IMG/VR virus record: IMGVR_UViG_2563366875_000004
Span: 1-42,427 of that record
Length of the DNA: 42,427 bases
DNA from: a virus
Lineage: Duplodnaviria; Heunggongvirae; Uroviricota; Caudoviricetes
Reading direction: 5' to 3' (one strand)
Part shown: piece by piece, positions 3,868 through 17,110 of the stretch
Layout: every line of letters begins with the position of its first letter
Position numbering within the stretch: position 1 is the stretch's first letter
Program-made: the position numbers and the translations under genes
Notes under the pieces: generated by a model
Told to the model about the DNA's origin: nothing
What the model saw: only the letters and a program-made list of their open reading frames with translations
Databases searched by the model: none

Positions 3868-4071
3868 TTACGGTGCTGTTTTAAGTCCCGCCGGGATTTC
3901 GTTATTGTCCATGTGAATAACTTTATCAACCGGATAACAGTTGCCGGGAATTTTCTGTTCCGCTGCGGCAGCCATGCATTCTTCCATTGAATCACGTATG
4001 TCAATAATAAGGTCAAGCGGCTCGCCCGTATTAAGAAAAACCGTCAGAACGAGTGCAAATGATGTATTCAT
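3868..4071 (-). CDS. Hypothetical small protein (67 aa), leftward early operon
   Basis: Internal ATG at 4069-4071 preceded by AAAGGA; ATGA overlap with stop of upstream ORF (translational coupling). Confidence 0.45.
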   Translation of the reverse strand: MNTSFALVLTVFLNTGEPLDLIIDIRDSMEECMAAAAEQKIPGNCYPVDKVIHMDNNEIPAGLKTAP

Positions 4072-4256
4072 TGCCAGTATCCTTTTTGCATCAGACGTAA
4101 ACGGGCCAGCATTGAAACAATGCATATTTGATTTAATAGCTCCCGTTCGTGTTTTCTCTTATTAATGGCATCTTCAGTAAATACAGGGTTACTGATTTTG
4201 ACACCAATTTCAAAGCAACCTTCAGACGTATTAACGTTTGGTAATAACGTTTCCAT
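4068..4256 (-). CDS. Hypothetical small protein (62 aa), leftward early operon
   Basis: ATG at 4254-4256 preceded by GAGGA at 8 nt; coupled to downstream ORF. Confidence 0.45.
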   Translation of the reverse strand: METLLPNVNTSEGCFEIGVKISNPVFTEDAINKRKHERELLNQICIVSMLARLRLMQKGYWQ

Positions 4257-4277
4257 TATCGCGTCCTCAACAATGAA

Positions 4278-4431
4278 TTTTGTGATGCGGTGCCTGGTGC
4301 CTCCAGGTGACGTTAACCAGTTAACAATTAACGCCGGATACAGAGAACCCACCCATAAGAACCAATACGGAAGTCAACTGGCCTTTTTAACTGTTCCGCG
4401 TGCGCTGAGCCGCATTCACCGCATCACAAAA
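4278..4431. repeat. Perfect 15-bp inverted repeat pair TTTTGTGATGCGGTG / CACCGCATCACAAAA separated by 124 bp
   Basis: Read directly from sequence (4278-4292 and 4417-4431); internal GTTAAC-containing sub-palindromes; lies in an ORF-free stretch. Confidence 0.6.
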
Positions 4432-4827
4432 TTCACTTTAAAAAGGGCGGACATCAGCCAGCAATGAAAACTGATGCCGCCAAAAGGTAATCAACATGGG
4501 TTGTTGCAGCGGGGTTGTCACTCAAGCGTATGGTCAACCAGACAACCCGGTGCTCCACAGGGGAGGGAGAATAGTACCCCTGCCATACTTACCGCCGCGC
4601 CATTTCGCGGATTGCCACAACCGGAAGCGTACGGTCGAATTAAATTTAACGACAAGCCTCATAGGTGAAGGCCTTCGCCGTACGCTTTCGTGTTATGCCC
4701 TGACTTTTCAGGGATATATCCTTTCAGTAAACTGTCAGTGCCGGATGCTCACCCGTGTCCGGCGCACGACCACACGTGGCAGCGTGTTGGTCTCCATTTT
4801 TAACCCAGAACCCAAATGGAGGATAAA

Positions 4828-5007
4828 ATGTCAGAACAATTTAACCCCCTGCGGAGACCTGCCTCAGCAGCACAACAAGTCGTGCTTGAAGTTGTTCGCG
4901 CGGGTAAGTTGTACGAAAAAACACAACTTTCTGAACTTTTTACACACATGCTTGACCATTACCGTGCTGAGGCGAAACGCCTGGAGCAGGAAAATAAAGC
5001 TCAATAA
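4828..5007 (+). CDS. Small hydrophilic protein (59 aa) encoded convergently to the leftward operon
   Basis: ATG at 4828 preceded by GGAGGA at optimal spacing; protein-like helical composition; strong intrinsic terminator 20 nt downstream. Confidence 0.45.
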   Translation: MSEQFNPLRRPASAAQQVVLEVVRAGKLYEKTQLSELFTHMLDHYRAEAKRLEQENKAQ

Positions 5008-5137
5008 AAGCTGCTTTAATGATCTGAGCCAGTGTGATTGCTGGCTCTTTTTGTGTTGAATCCAGGTCTGCTAATTTTTGACGAAGACAGTCTGCAGCTA
5101 TAACCTGCAAATCTGCAGGTAAATCTTTAAATTCCAT
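4940..5137 (-). CDS. Hypothetical small protein (65 aa); 3' end overlaps the plus-strand small gene and terminator antisense
   Basis: ATG at 5135-5137 preceded by GAGG; either this ORF or the convergent plus-strand ORF may be the real one in the overlap. Confidence 0.3.
   Translation of the reverse strand: MEFKDLPADLQVIAADCLRQKLADLDSTQKEPAITLAQIIKAAFIELYFPAPGVSPQHGNGQACV
5026..5052 (+). terminator. Rho-independent terminator (plus strand only)
   Basis: GAGCCAG-8 nt loop-CTGGCTC stem followed by TTTTTG; on the minus strand the hairpin is followed by no U-tract. Confidence 0.6.
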
Positions 5138-5159
5138 TATTAGCCTCGTTGGTTAGCTA

Positions 5160-5378
5160 TTAACGCGGGTATGTAATCATTCTGGCAATGCTTAATGCCG
5201 CTGCTTTTTCCAGCCTGGTTATATCTTTTTCCAGAGCGGACAGATTTTCAGCCTGCTTAGTCCTGGCTTCATTGGCCCATTTCAGATCCTGCGCTGCATT
5301 AATTTTCTGGCGCATCCACTCATAAAGTTCATCATCGGTATAGTCTGGCGCGATGATGACGGGTTCTCGTTTCTGCAT
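5160..5378 (-). CDS. Hypothetical small protein (72 aa), leftward early operon
   Basis: ATG at 5376-5378 preceded by GAGGAA. Confidence 0.5.
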   Translation of the reverse strand: MQKREPVIIAPDYTDDELYEWMRQKINAAQDLKWANEARTKQAENLSALEKDITRLEKAAALSIARMITYPR

Positions 5379-5885: not shown

Positions 5886-6344
5886 TTATTGATGTTTGTT
5901 ACGTTTGCGAGCTTCTAGTAGCTCGGTGAATAGGCGATTAAAATTCTCAACGCGGGCACGGAGTTCGCTGATTTGTGCTTGCTGCTCTGATTTTGGAAGT
6001 GCGCGATACAATCGCAACATCTCCAACTCATCTTCCGATAAGTCTAAGGCGCTGTTGAGTGCAACTGGTGGATCTGGTGTTTTATCCTCGTCACCAAACA
6101 GTATCCAAGTTGGTGAACATTGCAATACCTCAGCCAGGCGATGCAAATTTTGCCCGCGCGGGGCTGTATGGTCGCTTTCCCATAGTGAAATTGATGAGCC
6201 AGATACGCCAGCAGCTTTGCTTAAATCGTTTTGACTTAAACCAACCTGTTTGCGTCTTTCTCTAATTCGTTGACCTAAAGTTTTCTCGTTCATATTTAGA
6301 TATCTTAATAACCCTTGACTTGAGATTCCTTGAGTGATTACCAT
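5886..6344 (-). CDS. Prophage repressor, HTH XRE/CI-type, without a LexA-like peptidase domain (152 aa; alternative start at 6293)
   Basis: HTH motif QVGLSQNDLSKAAGVSGSSISLWE; divergent from cro-like gene; C-terminal part is helical and lacks a Ser/Lys autocleavage module. Confidence 0.8.
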   Translation of the reverse strand: MVITQGISSQGLLRYLNMNEKTLGQRIRERRKQVGLSQNDLSKAAGVSGSSISLWESDHTAPRGQNLHRLAEVLQCSPTWILFGDEDKTPDPPVALNSALDLSEDELEMLRLYRALPKSEQQAQISELRARVENFNRLFTELLEARKRNKHQ

Positions 6345-12049: not shown

Positions 12050-12199
12050 TTTTATACCTTTTGTGTTGTGTGAAGGAGCAGTATAGTCAGAAATGAGACA
12101 AGTGAAAGGGGATAGAAAGTAATAGTTTGTTTTTGTAGAATTGCTGCGGGTGCTTGAGGCTATCTGCCTCAGGCATGAACACCAAAAGGCAGATAGAGA

Positions 12200-12303
12200 A
12201 AAGCCCCAGTTAACATTACGCGTCCTGCAAGACGCTTAACATTAATCTGAGGCCATATCTATGCGACACATAGAGATTAGCCTCTTACGGACCGAAAGGT
12301 CAA
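12200..12303 (-). ncRNA. Sok-like antisense RNA with its promoter (approximate bounds)
   Basis: Minus-strand -35 TTGACC (12298-12303) and -10 TAATCT (12274-12279), 18-nt spacer, reading antisense across the mok start; 3' end not defined. Confidence 0.4.
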
Positions 12304-12320
12304 GGAGAAGCAGGCTATGA
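12261..12320 (+). CDS. mok-like upstream leader ORF (19 codons) coupled to hok
   Basis: ATG 12261; stop TGA overlaps the hok ATG (CTATGA). Confidence 0.3.
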   Translation: MRHIEISLLRTERSRRSRL

Positions 12321-14820: not shown

Positions 14821-15109
14821 AGGATTAATCCCGCCGAAAGTGAAATCACGCCCTCAGTGTTCTGATGATGATGCAATGATAATTTGTGGCTGTATGGCCC
14901 GGTTGAACAAGAAAAATCAGGATTTGCACGATTTGTTGGTGGATTATTACGTAGGTGGAATGACTTTTATGGGGCTGGCACGAAAGCATGGGTGTTCGGA
15001 TACCTGTATTGGCAAGCGCCTGCAGAAAGCGGAAGGGGTTATTGATGGCATGTTGATGATGCTTGATATCCGACTGGAGATGGACCGATACGTAGAACGA
15101 ATTATGTAG
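14723..15109 (+). CDS. Short Q-like late antiterminator (QuuD-like, 128 aa)
   Basis: ATG after AGGTGA; size and position immediately upstream of a pR'-like promoter and terminator. Confidence 0.65.
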
Positions 15110-15143: not shown

Positions 15144-15206
15144 TCCGACGCAACCGCAAAATCGGTTGTCGGGATTAGCACCCCGGATGTTTACGGAGCG
15201 ATATGA

Positions 15207-15226
15207 GACGCGCCCGCGTCTTTTTT
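15207..15226 (+). terminator. tR'-like intrinsic terminator
   Basis: GACGC-tetraloop-GCGTC followed by TTTTTT. Confidence 0.5.
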
Positions 15227-15390
15227 CATATCGTTTGCACAGTCACATTCGCGATTAATGGCGGGCTGTGTGGGGGAGCCGAAAGGCTCGCCGGTTTCCG
15301 TACCCGGTAGTGCTAACCCCGCACAGTTCGCCACCACGATGATTAGCACCTGACGGTGGCGATAATGTCCAAATGTACGGAGTTATCGTT

Positions 15391-16956: not shown

Positions 16957-17032
<76 letters not shown>

Positions 17033-17035
17033 TAT

Positions 17036-17110
<75 letters not shown>

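What the first reader, a model, noticed from the sequence alone, without database searches (positions are those of the whole stretch)
4257..5059. ORF-free, hairpin-dense segment inside the leftward operon, ending in a convergent small gene with its own terminator
Between 4353 and 4815 no plausible protein is encoded on the operon strand, yet the DNA is packed with inverted repeats: a perfect 15-bp pair (4278-4292 / 4417-4431), an 11-bp stem at 4624-4686 enclosing the palindrome GAAGGCCTTC, and hairpins at 4697-4712, 4741-4764 and 4771-4788. At its right end a 59-aa ORF (4828-5007) on the opposite strand has a GGAGGA RBS and a strictly unidirectional terminator (5026-5052). The 187-codon plus-strand ORF across this stretch is Cys-rich and not protein-like, which fits a structured RNA rather than a gene. 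This could be a regulatory RNA, an antisense control module or a protein-binding DNA element.
Basis: seen in the sequence. Interest (0 to 1): 0.65.

Follow-up and report, generated by a model that had tools for sequence, protein, structure and literature searches.

The report
Divergent DicF small-RNA locus plus cassette
The hairpin-rich "empty" stretch is the known precursor region of the prophage small RNA DicF, read on the operon strand, here with an unannotated variant of the small RNA, a very conserved folded RNA domain just upstream of it, and a rare inserted cassette that carries a real 59-residue gene on the opposite strand.

Summary
In detail: the hairpins, the 59-aa plus-strand ORF and its one-way terminator are at the stated coordinates and exceed chance. 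The window is a Qin-type lambdoid prophage. Bases 4257-4815 are the untranslated dicF region of the ydfABC-dicF-dicB operon, and they work as RNA on the minus (operon) strand, not the plus strand.

- **Small RNA.** Between the stems lies a DicF-like sRNA (4445-4496). Its 5' part and loop differ from K-12 DicF, it scores below Rfam's threshold, and it is unannotated in about 100 E. coli genomes.
- **Conserved core.** Upstream of the sRNA is a roughly 119-nt four-helix core with a likely pseudoknot (4503-4621). It is more conserved than the sRNA, occurs in about 80% of complete E. coli genomes and in phage P1, and has covariation support.
- **Cassette.** Bases ~4741-5140 are a rare mobile cassette. 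Its 59-aa gene shows a clear coding signature.

Most of this is known biology. The new pieces are the sRNA allele, the core's fold and the cassette.

The parts
4068..4256 (-). dicB, cell-division inhibitor, 62 aa. The true start is the ATG at 4256.
   Evidence: NCBIfam CellDivInhibDicB, 133 bits against a cut-off of 100. PGAP annotation in the closest genome. Alignment with K-12.
4257..4444 (-). Structured dicF-dicB spacer, which is also the dicB leader. It resembles STnc100 and is closed by the 19-bp duplex.
   Evidence: Rfam STnc100 at 4224-4447, 34 bits against a gathering score of 47, E = 3.7e-5. Fold z = -5.1. Aligns with the K-12 spacer.
4274..4292 (-). 3' arm of the 19-bp duplex, 18-36 nt upstream of the dicB ATG.
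   Evidence: Perfect 19-nt inverted repeat. Conserved in 51 unique spacers, where the variants are mostly G-U pairs.
4417..4435 (-). 5' arm of the 19-bp duplex. Inferred RNase III site that would set the 3' end of the 72-nt DicF form.
   Evidence: Counting 72 nt from the K-12 DicF 5' end lands about 9 nt into this arm. A 72-nt form made by RNase III is reported in PMC5069750 and PMC9438474. The position here is transferred by alignment and not shown for this allele.
4440..4496 (-). DicF-like small RNA in a divergent allele. Variable 5' part 4482-4496, terminator hairpin 4445-4481, U-run 4440-4444.
   Evidence: Rfam DicF at 4445-4496, 39.4 bits against a gathering score of 48, E = 1.4e-6. 13-bp hairpin followed by U5. 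Sits at the DicF position in the K-12 alignment, with 10 of K-12's bases missing from the 5' part and a different loop. Present in about 100 of 5426 genomes and never annotated.
4503..4621 (-). Conserved core domain. Closing stem P1 (4614-4621 with 4503-4510), H1 (4595-4610), H2 (4558-4582), H3 (4512-4548) with an invariant loop, and a proposed pseudoknot between 4583-4588 and 4528-4533.
   Evidence: 67-sequence alignment, consensus fold and pair counts: 98.5% of cells paired against at most 57% for slid partners, 9 pairs with changes on both sides, 0 of 500 shuffles as good. Pseudoknot covariation. Covariance model hit of 136.6 bits, the only copy in the window.
4614..4697 (-). Long interrupted stem-loop. 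Inferred RNase III substrate that would give the 5' end of the 190-nt pre-DicF, with the cut expected near 4627. Its 3' arm includes the 5' strand of P1.
   Evidence: the stem is kept in every lineage folded, in the K-12-like lineages with base changes that preserve pairing and in the group next to LexA-like repressors with wholly different arm sequences. The 190-nt RNase III product is described in PMC10448788. The position is transferred from K-12 coordinates.
4697..4712 (-). Small hairpin CCCUGA-AAAG-UCAGGG.
   Evidence: Some relatives have CUCUGA/UCAGAG, a change on both sides that keeps the pair.
4741..4790 (.). Two adjacent hairpins (4741-4764 and 4771-4788) at the left edge of the cassette. 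They are part of the operon transcript and would also form the 5' leader of the plus-strand gene.
   Evidence: Shared with unrelated contexts L006 and L007. Hairpin 1 is also in K-12. Hairpin 2 is replaced by a different hairpin at the same position in K-12. The same leader precedes an unrelated 77-aa plus-strand ORF in strain ESC818.
4792..4823 (+). Ribosome-binding site GGAGGA (4818-4823), partly paired with CUCCAUUU (4792-4799).
   Evidence: Inverted repeat I10, 8 nt and 100% complementary. Conserved in all three contexts. Any role in translation control is inference.
4828..5007 (+). Real 59-aa gene of unknown function. Predicted to form a two-helix hairpin.
   Evidence: Substitutions fall mostly on codon position 3 (9 of 15). 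Synonymous to non-synonymous codon changes are 8:5, 8:6 and 7:3, against 0-3:9-13 in the other two frames. phrog_17494, E = 1e-17. AlphaFold2 mean pLDDT 78.
5026..5052 (+). Intrinsic terminator of the plus-strand gene, working in one direction only.
   Evidence: 9-bp stem followed by TTTTTGTG on the plus strand, with no minus-strand terminator at that site.
4940..5137 (-). 65-aa minus-strand ORF, called by PGAP. It overlaps the 59-aa gene by 68 nt. It may be a truncated or fast-evolving member of a family that shares its first ~50 residues.
   Evidence: PGAP WP_001542791.1. phrog_9419 E = 4e-17 and phrog_1363 E = 2.5e-10, both N-terminal only. No purifying-selection signature (2:12, 5:9, 2:10), and the stop codon moves between loci.
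5160..5378 (-). ydfC, the last protein gene before the dicF region.
   Evidence: PGAP annotation. K-12 alignment.

Best explanation
Bases 4257-4815 are the untranslated dicF segment of a Qin-type early-left operon (ydfA-ydfB-ydfC-[cassette]-dicF-dicB-ydfD), transcribed on the minus strand from the repressor-controlled promoter next to the cI/DicA-like gene.

Order of elements, 5' to 3' on the minus strand:
1. Small leader hairpins.
2. An interrupted stem of about 22 bp (4614-4697), which aligns with the position where K-12's 190-nt pre-DicF begins.
3. A conserved four-helix core of about 119 nt, probably pseudoknotted (4503-4621).
4. A short single-stranded linker, where RNase E would make the mature 5' end.
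5. A DicF-like sRNA of about 52 nt ending in its own intrinsic terminator (4440-4496).
6. A 188-nt structured spacer closed by a 19-bp duplex (4274-4292 / 4417-4435). This is the second inferred RNase III site. It would separate the sRNA from the dicB message and lies just upstream of the dicB ribosome-binding site.

How it most likely works. When the operon is derepressed, most transcripts stop at the sRNA terminator. They are trimmed to a small Hfq-dependent regulator of host mRNAs. Read-through transcripts express dicB and the recombination and integration genes.

This window's allele. It lacks 10 bases of K-12's 5' part and lacks the loop sequence ACUCCG that pairs with the ftsZ ribosome-binding site. 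It therefore probably has a different target set (inference).

The core. Its most likely job (inference, about 0.4) is as a biogenesis and stability scaffold. Before cleavage its 5' strand GUUGUGG is held in the RNase III stem. After cleavage that strand pairs with GCUGCAAC to close the domain, leaving a 5'-monophosphate RNA with an exposed linker for RNase E.

The cassette. Bases ~4741-5140 are a rare mobile two-ORF cassette inserted between ydfC and the dicF region. Its plus-strand 59-aa gene is real and has its own terminator, and it is presumably expressed independently of the operon.
For: - **Identity of the locus.** Flanking genes are ydfA/B/C and dicB/DUF1482. The region is collinear with K-12 Qin, where dicF is annotated between ydfC and dicB. 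Phage Tritos annotates DicF at the homologous place. Rfam gives DicF (E = 1.4e-6) and STnc100 (E = 3.7e-5) on the minus strand.
- **Processing.** The 190-nt RNase III product, the 53-nt RNase E product and the 72-nt RNase III 3' end are documented in K-12 (PMC10448788; PMC5069750; PMC9438474).
- **Strand and structure.** The core reaches 98.5% pairing, with 9 doubly changed pairs and many G-U pairs. The upstream stem is kept in every lineage, in one group with wholly different arm sequences. The 19-bp duplex is kept in 51 unique spacers, with mostly G-U variants. Fold z-scores are -3.4 and -5.1.
- **Conservation.** The 4497-4827 stretch matches 4350 of 5426 E. coli genomes. The sRNA slot comes in at least 7 alleles.
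- **Cassette.** It is present in full in only about 10 genomes. It recurs with the same edges in two unrelated contexts. The 59-aa ORF has a coding signature.
Against: - No expression data exist for this window. All cleavage sites are transferred from K-12 by alignment, and the paper's own cut coordinate ('813/814') could not be reconciled with the 190-nt count.
- The sRNA scores below Rfam's DicF threshold (39.4 against 48), and its mature 5' end is unknown.
- The core's role is inferred only. Its loops are invariant and its pseudoknot is conserved, which is more constraint than a simple protective scaffold would seem to need.
- Pseudoknot support is modest: two apparently independent double changes and two wobble singles, against two disruptive singles.
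- No promoter for the 59-aa gene passes the consensus scan at a sensible place. The only hit at 4800-4829 would overlap the start codon.
Confidence: 0.85

Rival explanations
1. The conserved core is a cis-acting termination-control RNA, analogous to the put RNA of phage HK022. It would modify RNA polymerase, or switch the adjacent terminator, so that early-operon transcription can pass the sRNA terminator and reach dicB, exo, xis and int.
For: - The core always sits directly upstream of an intrinsic terminator, inside repressor-controlled early operons. Examples: after ydfABC in Qin-type prophages; about 300 nt downstream of the likely PL promoter in the phage group with a LexA-like cI; and immediately after the C1-controlled Pban promoter in P1.
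- No N-like gene is evident in these operons.
- The core is more conserved than its flanks and has invariant loops, which suggests binding to a conserved host machine.
- All alleles keep GGCGG/CCGCC at the base of the terminator.
Against: - No sequence or covariance-model similarity to HK022.
- The architecture differs. put is about 70 nt with two stems (PMC9378689). This element is about 119 nt, with a closing stem, three hairpins and a pseudoknot.
- There is only one copy in the window and none in the rightward operon.
- In K-12 the terminator right after the core works well. The ydfABC-dicF transcript ending at the terminator was detected in wild-type cells, and the read-through species accumulated only when RNase E was inactivated.
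Confidence: 0.15
2. One reading: the functional RNA is on the plus strand. It would be a structured regulatory or antisense RNA ending at the 5026-5052 terminator that controls the leftward operon.
For: - A plus-strand transcript must exist for the 59-aa gene, which is under selection. It would be antisense to the operon RNA over roughly 4740-5052.
- The two-hairpin leader at 4741-4790 precedes two unrelated plus-strand ORFs in different prophages.
- A -10-like TAAACT/TAAAAT sits at the cassette edge in all three contexts (read from the sequence).
Against: - The conserved structures between 4257 and 4700 carry many G-U pairs, which would be A-C mismatches on the plus strand.
- The known RNAs of this locus are on the operon strand.
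- K-12 has the same 4497-4768 sequence with no plus-strand gene or terminator.
- No plus-strand promoter passed the scan at a useful position.
Confidence: 0.1
3. The 190-nt RNA (core plus sRNA) is itself the functional unit. The core would bind or titrate a host protein or RNA in trans, rather than only helping sRNA maturation.
For: - The 190-nt species increases and remains stable in stationary phase in K-12.
- In P1 the promoter lies about 35-55 nt upstream of the core. A primary transcript ending at the adjacent terminator would therefore be core plus sRNA-like tail, with no RNase III step.
- The loops are invariant and the fold is compact and pseudoknot-like.
Against: No partner is known. 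The 53-nt form is sufficient for all published DicF phenotypes. No sequence-level hint of a partner was found.
Confidence: 0.15
4. The ORF-free stretch is a decayed pseudogene, or a DNA-level protein-binding site.
For: Short minus-strand ORFs of 42-45 aa exist in the window.
Against: - Indels that are not multiples of three separate the window from K-12 inside these ORFs.
- Substitutions are compensatory in stems.
- No protein family matches.
- The same stretch is unannotated and lacks an ORF in K-12.
Confidence: 0.02

Closest known systems
DicF sRNA of the E. coli K-12 Qin prophage (Rfam RF00039), with its 190-nt, 72-nt and 53-nt processing forms
   Same: Same operon position between ydfC and dicB. 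Same upstream core and the same two duplexes that fit the K-12 RNase III products. Same terminator base GGCGG/CCGCC followed by a U-run. Same downstream spacer.
   Different: The 5' part lacks 10 of K-12's bases and is otherwise changed. The loop lacks the ACUCCG that pairs with ftsZ. It scores 39.4 bits against a gathering score of 48 and so is missed by annotation. A 344-bp cassette separates ydfC from the dicF region.
STnc100 (RF02076) and the related PasD prophage sRNAs
   Same: The dicF-dicB spacer matches the full length of the STnc100 model, including its long closing helix, which is the 19-bp duplex.
   Different: The score is below threshold (34 bits against 47). Here the element is an intra-operon leader of dicB. 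Whether it yields a separate sRNA is unknown.
The 'dicF-like region' in the phage P1 ban operon leader
   Same: It has the same core (78.8 bits with the model built here), followed by a short tail and an intrinsic terminator. It lies downstream of a repressor-controlled early promoter.
   Different: There is no upstream RNase III stem, because the promoter is about 35-55 nt upstream of the core. The tail and terminator sequences are unrelated. tRNA genes and ban follow, rather than dicB.
HK022 putL and putR antiterminator RNAs
   Same: A promoter-proximal, cis-encoded structured RNA in the early operons of a lambdoid phage that lacks an obvious N protein.
   Different: No sequence or model similarity. 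put has two stems and about 70 nt, against four helices, a pseudoknot and about 119 nt here. This element is present as a single copy, and the adjacent terminator is functional in K-12.
Intra-operonic and 3'UTR-derived sRNAs such as SroC, made by early termination plus RNase E
   Same: An sRNA made from a polycistronic mRNA by intrinsic termination and endonucleolytic 5' trimming, with seeds that evolve quickly.
   Different: Those examples have no large conserved structured domain upstream of the sRNA.

Membership tests
DicF sRNA (RF00039) | Lies between ydfC and dicB in the dicB operon, on the operon strand | tested here: met
   Collinear with K-12, where dicF is annotated.
DicF sRNA (RF00039) | Score at or above the Rfam gathering threshold | tested here: not met
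   39.4 bits against 48. E = 1.4e-6 in a 2.1-kb search, with the full model length matched. No hit in the gathering-threshold scan.
DicF sRNA (RF00039) | 3' Rho-independent terminator hairpin with a U-run | tested here: met
   13-bp hairpin at 4445-4481 followed by U5.
DicF sRNA (RF00039) | 3'-region sequence complementary to the ftsZ ribosome-binding site | tested here: inconclusive
   The K-12 loop AGUUUUACUCCG is AGUUUUCAUUGC here, so the CUCCG part is lost. The whole-molecule duplex energy is no better than shuffled controls, but this test also failed to separate K-12 DicF from its own shuffled controls.
DicF sRNA (RF00039) | [quoted passage not shown] | not testable with these tools
   Both duplexes and the linker are conserved. 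The cleavages themselves are known only for K-12.
STnc100 (RF02076) | Score at or above the Rfam gathering threshold, with the long closing helix | tested here: not met
   34 bits against 47, with model positions 1-206 matched. The closing helix is present as the 19-bp duplex.
HK022 put antiterminator RNA | Sequence or structure similarity to putL/putR (two stems, about 70 nt) | tested here: not met
   BLAST against the whole HK022 genome gives no match above chance. The covariance model gives no hit at E <= 10. The put architecture is described in PMC9378689.
HK022 put antiterminator RNA | One copy in each early operon (left and right) | tested here: not met
   The window holds a single copy.
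HK022 put antiterminator RNA | Suppresses downstream terminators | not testable with these tools
   K-12 Northern data suggest efficient termination right after the core.
tRNA-like element or RNase P substrate | Cloverleaf recognisable by a tRNA finder | tested here: not met
   ARAGORN finds nothing in 4200-5200.
Protein-coding gene (59-aa plus-strand ORF) | Purifying selection in its own frame, with the ORF kept intact in homologues | tested here: met
   position-3 bias, synonymous to non-synonymous 8:5, 8:6 and 7:3 against 0-3:9-13 in the other frames. Same length in all three loci.
Known anti-phage defence or named protein families (59-aa and 65-aa ORFs) | Match to a Pfam, NCBIfam or PADLOC model, or to a solved fold | tested here: not met
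   Only PHROG families of unknown function match.

The most novel reading that the evidence does not exclude
The ~119-nt pseudoknotted core is an autonomous, previously undescribed RNA domain. It would serve as a common 'launch pad' for interchangeable prophage small RNAs by engaging a specific host machine (RNase E or the degradosome, RNA polymerase, or another factor). It is fused to at least seven different seed-and-terminator modules at the start of early operons in Qin-type prophages, in a second prophage group next to LexA-like repressors, and in P1. The RNase III cut would act as a switch that lets the domain fold.
Probability: 0.3. Interest if true: 0.7.

Novelty: new member of a known kind. 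Interest (0 to 1): 0.45.

Why it matters
**Annotation.** A DicF-family sRNA allele carried by about 2% of complete E. coli genomes, including STEC isolates, goes unannotated. It scores below the Rfam threshold, and its changed 5' part and loop imply different host targets from the ftsZ, xylR and pykA set of K-12 DicF.

**Biology.** The part of the dicF region that evolution holds most constant is not the sRNA. It is a folded domain in front of it, present in about 80% of E. coli genomes and in P1. No paper in the searchable library discusses its structure or role. It offers a direct, testable handle on how prophage sRNAs are matured, and on how one platform can carry swappable regulators.

**Cassette.** The cassette shows that the ydfC-dicF junction is a hot spot for small opposite-strand genes.

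Tried and rejected
- **HK022 put homology.** BLAST of the core against the whole HK022 genome and a covariance-model search both gave nothing.
- **tRNA-like idea.** ARAGORN was negative, also for loci L042 and L121, which carry T-arm-like sequences.
- **Other named prophage sRNAs.** The PasA-D and HnrS papers place those sRNAs among late or lysis genes, not at this locus. The AgvB lead from the CACAACA motif was dropped, because Rfam's AgvB model did not hit the window or the representative loci scanned.
- **Function of the 59-aa protein.** Pfam, NCBIfam and PADLOC gave nothing and PDB Foldseek gave no match. The apparent homologue at 51% identity (P0006), along with P0004 and P0005, turned out to be frame-shifted copies of the same DNA rather than divergent relatives.
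- **ftsZ pairing by whole-molecule RNAduplex.** Uninformative, because even K-12 DicF did not stand out from its shuffled controls.
- **Genome-contig scan with a 16-mer.** Mostly chance matches and capped at 120 rows. Only E. albertii, a Citrobacter and one MAG were true hits, so the taxonomic range is not established.
- **Older literature.** Faubladier & Bouché 1994 and Murashko & Lin-Chao 2017 could not be read. Whether the older work already drew the core structure is therefore unknown. A full-text search for the core's sequence strings found no paper.
- **Promoter for the plus-strand gene.** The only consensus hit overlaps the start codon and was rejected.
Full report
**What the window is.**
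The left end of the window is a lambdoid prophage arm read leftwards. Its gene order is:
- integrase (1-1020), excisionase and an 826-aa exonuclease;
- a DUF1482/YdfD-like gene (3868-4071);
- dicB (4068-4256);
- the finding;
- ydfC (5160-5378), ydfB and ydfA;
- a cI/DicA-like repressor (5886-6344), divergent from a cro-like gene.

This is the layout of the dicB ("dicBF") operon of the K-12 cryptic prophage Qin, where the small RNA gene dicF lies between ydfC and dicB. Related phages annotate dicB, ydfC and, in phage Tritos, DicF at the homologous place.

**Checking the observation.**
- The long-range inverted repeat is longer than stated: 19 nt, perfect, at 4274-4292 / 4417-4435.
- The "11-bp stem" is 13 nt at 92% (4622-4634 / 4678-4690), around the GAAGGCCTTC palindrome.
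- The plus-strand terminator at 5026-5047 with its T-run is found, and there is no minus-strand equivalent.
- The minus-strand RNA folds better than all 200 dinucleotide shuffles in both halves, with z = -3.4 and -5.1.
- The 187-codon plus-strand ORF is not conserved. Its frame has stop codons in the two homologous loci.
- The short minus-strand ORFs cross a stretch whose length differs from K-12 by a number of bases that is not a multiple of three.

**Identity of 4257-4500.**
A permissive Rfam scan puts DicF at 4445-4496 on the minus strand (39.4 bits, gathering score 48, E = 1.4e-6). It puts STnc100 at 4224-4447 on the same strand (34 bits against 47). Neither reaches threshold, which is why the gathering scan and PGAP are silent here.

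In the four-way alignment with K-12, Tritos and strain ESC818, the sRNA sits exactly at the DicF position. It keeps UUUGGCGG...CCGCCCUUUUU. It lacks 10 of K-12's bases in the 5' part and has a different loop.

The K-12 literature describes three forms:
- a 53-nt DicF, made by intrinsic termination plus RNase E;
- a 72-nt form whose 3' end is cut by RNase III;
- a 190-nt form whose 5' end is cut by RNase III (PMC10448788; PMC5069750; PMC9438474).

Counting these lengths on K-12 and carrying them through the alignment gives two positions. The 72-nt end falls about 9 nt into the 5' arm of the 19-bp duplex. The 190-nt end falls at about window 4627, in the 3' arm of the 4622-4634 / 4678-4690 stem. 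This step is an inference by alignment, not a measurement on this allele.

The 19-bp duplex is kept in 51 unique spacers. Its variants are mostly U-G or G-U pairs, there is one C-G to U-A double change, and a few positions show A-C mismatches in 2-5 sequences.

**Identity of 4497-4815.**
This "ORF-free" stretch is the conserved ydfC-dicF spacer.
- It matches 4350 of 5426 complete E. coli genomes at 80-90% identity, K-12 included, with no annotation under it.
- An exact 24-mer from it retrieved 120 viral contigs.
- In the resulting alignments the ~130 nt just upstream of the sRNA are over 90% identical. The sRNA itself occurs in at least seven alleles with different 5' parts and loops.

A 67-sequence alignment, including P1, gives the following consensus fold:
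- a closing stem P1, GUUGUGGC/GCUGCAAC;
- hairpin H1;
- a variable hairpin H2;
- a two-part hairpin H3 with an invariant 9-nt loop UGACCAUAC.

The fold is supported statistically. 98.5% of cells are paired, against at most 57% when partners are slid by 1-3 columns. Nine pairs carry changes on both sides, against 1-2 in the slid controls. No shuffle out of 500 reaches the observed values. One caveat applies: H1 and the junction lie inside the search pattern, so their invariance says nothing.

Frequent G-U pairs fix the strand as the operon strand. Examples are U-G 36 against U-A 29 at one P1 position, and G-U 44 against G-C 21 at the next.

**A likely pseudoknot.**
GUAUGG in the H1/H2 junction (4583-4588) is complementary to CCAUAC in the H3 loop (4528-4533). 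Three scans that excluded the canonical base at single positions gave the following:
- GCAUGG always occurs together with CCAUGC in the P1-type lineage.
- The same double change occurs in a dicF-type sequence (L358) whose intervening sequence is not P1-like.
- Two single changes give wobble pairs (L121, L412).
- Two single changes break the pair (L392, L173).

This is suggestive, not conclusive.

**A likely switch.**
The P1 5' strand GUUGUGG also pairs with an upstream CAUAAC or CACAAC. That pairing extends the RNase III stem to about 22 bp. The extended stem is predicted in every lineage folded, including the group next to LexA-like repressors, whose arm sequences are wholly different. The same segment therefore has two conserved, mutually exclusive partners.

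The inference is that RNase III cleavage removes the upstream partner and lets the core close. The product would be a 5'-monophosphate RNA of core, linker and sRNA, which is the 190-nt species.

**Where else the core occurs.**
- In about 80 of 126 loci it sits in a dicB operon.
- In about 40 loci none of the dicB-operon proteins are nearby.
- In one of those 40 (L008) it lies about 300 nt downstream of the likely PL promoter, beside a LexA-like cI, and is followed by a different sRNA-like hairpin and terminator.
- In P1 it lies about 35-55 nt downstream of the C1-controlled Pban promoter, again followed by a terminator, inside the region annotated "dicF-like".
- The covariance model finds exactly one copy in the window, finds P1 at 78.8 bits, and finds nothing in HK022.

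**What the core does.**
This is not shown by any result here. I commit to a maturation and stability scaffold as the most likely role. Three points support it:
- it forms the body of a documented stable precursor;
- it is flanked by both processing sites;
- the switch fits a 5'-end-dependent RNase E step.

A put-like antitermination role is attractive from the core's position. Several results count against it: no similarity to put, a different architecture, a single copy, and K-12 Northern data in which the transcript ending at the terminator right after the core was detected in wild-type cells while the read-through species accumulated only without RNase E. A trans-acting role for the 190-nt RNA cannot be excluded.

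**The window's sRNA allele.**
It occurs in about 100 of 5426 genomes, never annotated, and in 8 of about 125 viral loci. The K-12 loop sequence that pairs with the ftsZ ribosome-binding site (ACUCCG) is replaced, and the 5' region used for xylR is altered. A different target set is therefore likely, but this is inference. The duplex-energy test was uninformative.

**The right-hand part.**
Bases 4816-5159 are rare. Only 9-10 genomes hold them in full. The block ~4741-5140 recurs with the same edges in two unrelated contexts.

The 59-aa plus-strand ORF is a real gene.
- Its substitutions fall mostly on codon position 3.
- Synonymous changes outnumber non-synonymous ones (8:5, 8:6, 7:3), against 0-3:9-13 in the other two frames.
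- Its length is constant across the three loci.
- It has a GGAGGA ribosome-binding site that can pair with an upstream CUCCAUUU, and a one-way terminator.
- It matches only a PHROG family of unknown function.
- It is predicted to be a two-helix hairpin with no structural neighbour.

The overlapping 65-aa minus-strand ORF, which PGAP calls, shares its first ~50 residues with a larger family that has variable C-termini. It shows no purifying-selection signature here.

In strain ESC818 a different cassette occupies the same slot, with a 135-aa minus-strand ORF and a 77-aa plus-strand ORF. Its plus-strand ORF starts just after the same two-hairpin leader. That hints at a plus-strand promoter or leader in 4728-4790, but no promoter was demonstrated.

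**Verdict.**
What remains new is modest but concrete:
- an unannotated DicF-family allele;
- a covariation-supported fold for the highly conserved pre-DicF core;
- a rare convergent small-gene cassette.

Noticed in passing
window 12148-12319 (+): A full-length sok antitoxin RNA (Rfam, 108 bits), which implies a hok/sok-type toxin-antitoxin module in the prophage's rightward region.
   Followed up: no
window 15150-15338 (+): isrK (74 bits) followed directly by a C4 antisense RNA (77 bits), just after a Q-like antiterminator gene that ends near 15109. This is a P1/P7-type immI-like module. In other loci (L039, L087) the DicF core lies upstream of the same isrK-C4 pair.
   Followed up: partly
window 16957-17107 (+): Two adjacent tRNA genes inside the prophage.
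   Followed up: no
L008 7968-8150 (-), and 34 other viral loci: A second common module behind the same core, UUUGGCGGUACCAGUUUGUACNCUUGCUUCCGGCUGGUACCGCUCUUUUU, with no Rfam match. In L008 it lies about 300 nt downstream of the likely PL promoter, beside a LexA-like cI. It looks like an unnamed early-operon sRNA.
   Followed up: partly
L003 (strain ESC818) 1827-2445; window 5118-5159: The ydfC-dicF junction is a hot spot for cassettes. ESC818 carries a 135-aa minus-strand ORF and a 77-aa plus-strand ORF in place of the window's pair. About 935 genomes share the first 42 nt (ribosome-binding site plus N-terminus MEFKDLP...) of a minus-strand gene family with variable C-termini.
   Followed up: partly
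L042 and L121, upstream of the core: The top of the upstream stem is replaced by sequences with perfect tRNA T-arm-like hairpins (GGCAGGTTCAATTCCTGCC and GTCCGTTCAATTCGGAC). The sRNA slot there lacks a terminator and runs into a ribosome-binding site. ARAGORN calls no tRNA.
   Followed up: partly
L005 1568-2287; hit H39: In some close relatives a 239-aa Rha/ASH-family regulator gene lies between dicB and the dicF region.
   Followed up: no
proteins P0004-P0006: Database 'homologues' of the 59-aa protein are frame-shifted readings of the same DNA, switching into the frame of the spurious 187-aa ORF. They come either from sequencing errors or from real frameshift variants.
   Followed up: partly
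window 4697-4712 (-): The hairpin CCCUGAAAAGUCAGGG begins like a lambda boxB (GCCCUGAAAAAGGGC), but has a 6-bp stem and a 4-nt loop. No boxA-boxB arrangement or N-like gene was found.
   Followed up: no
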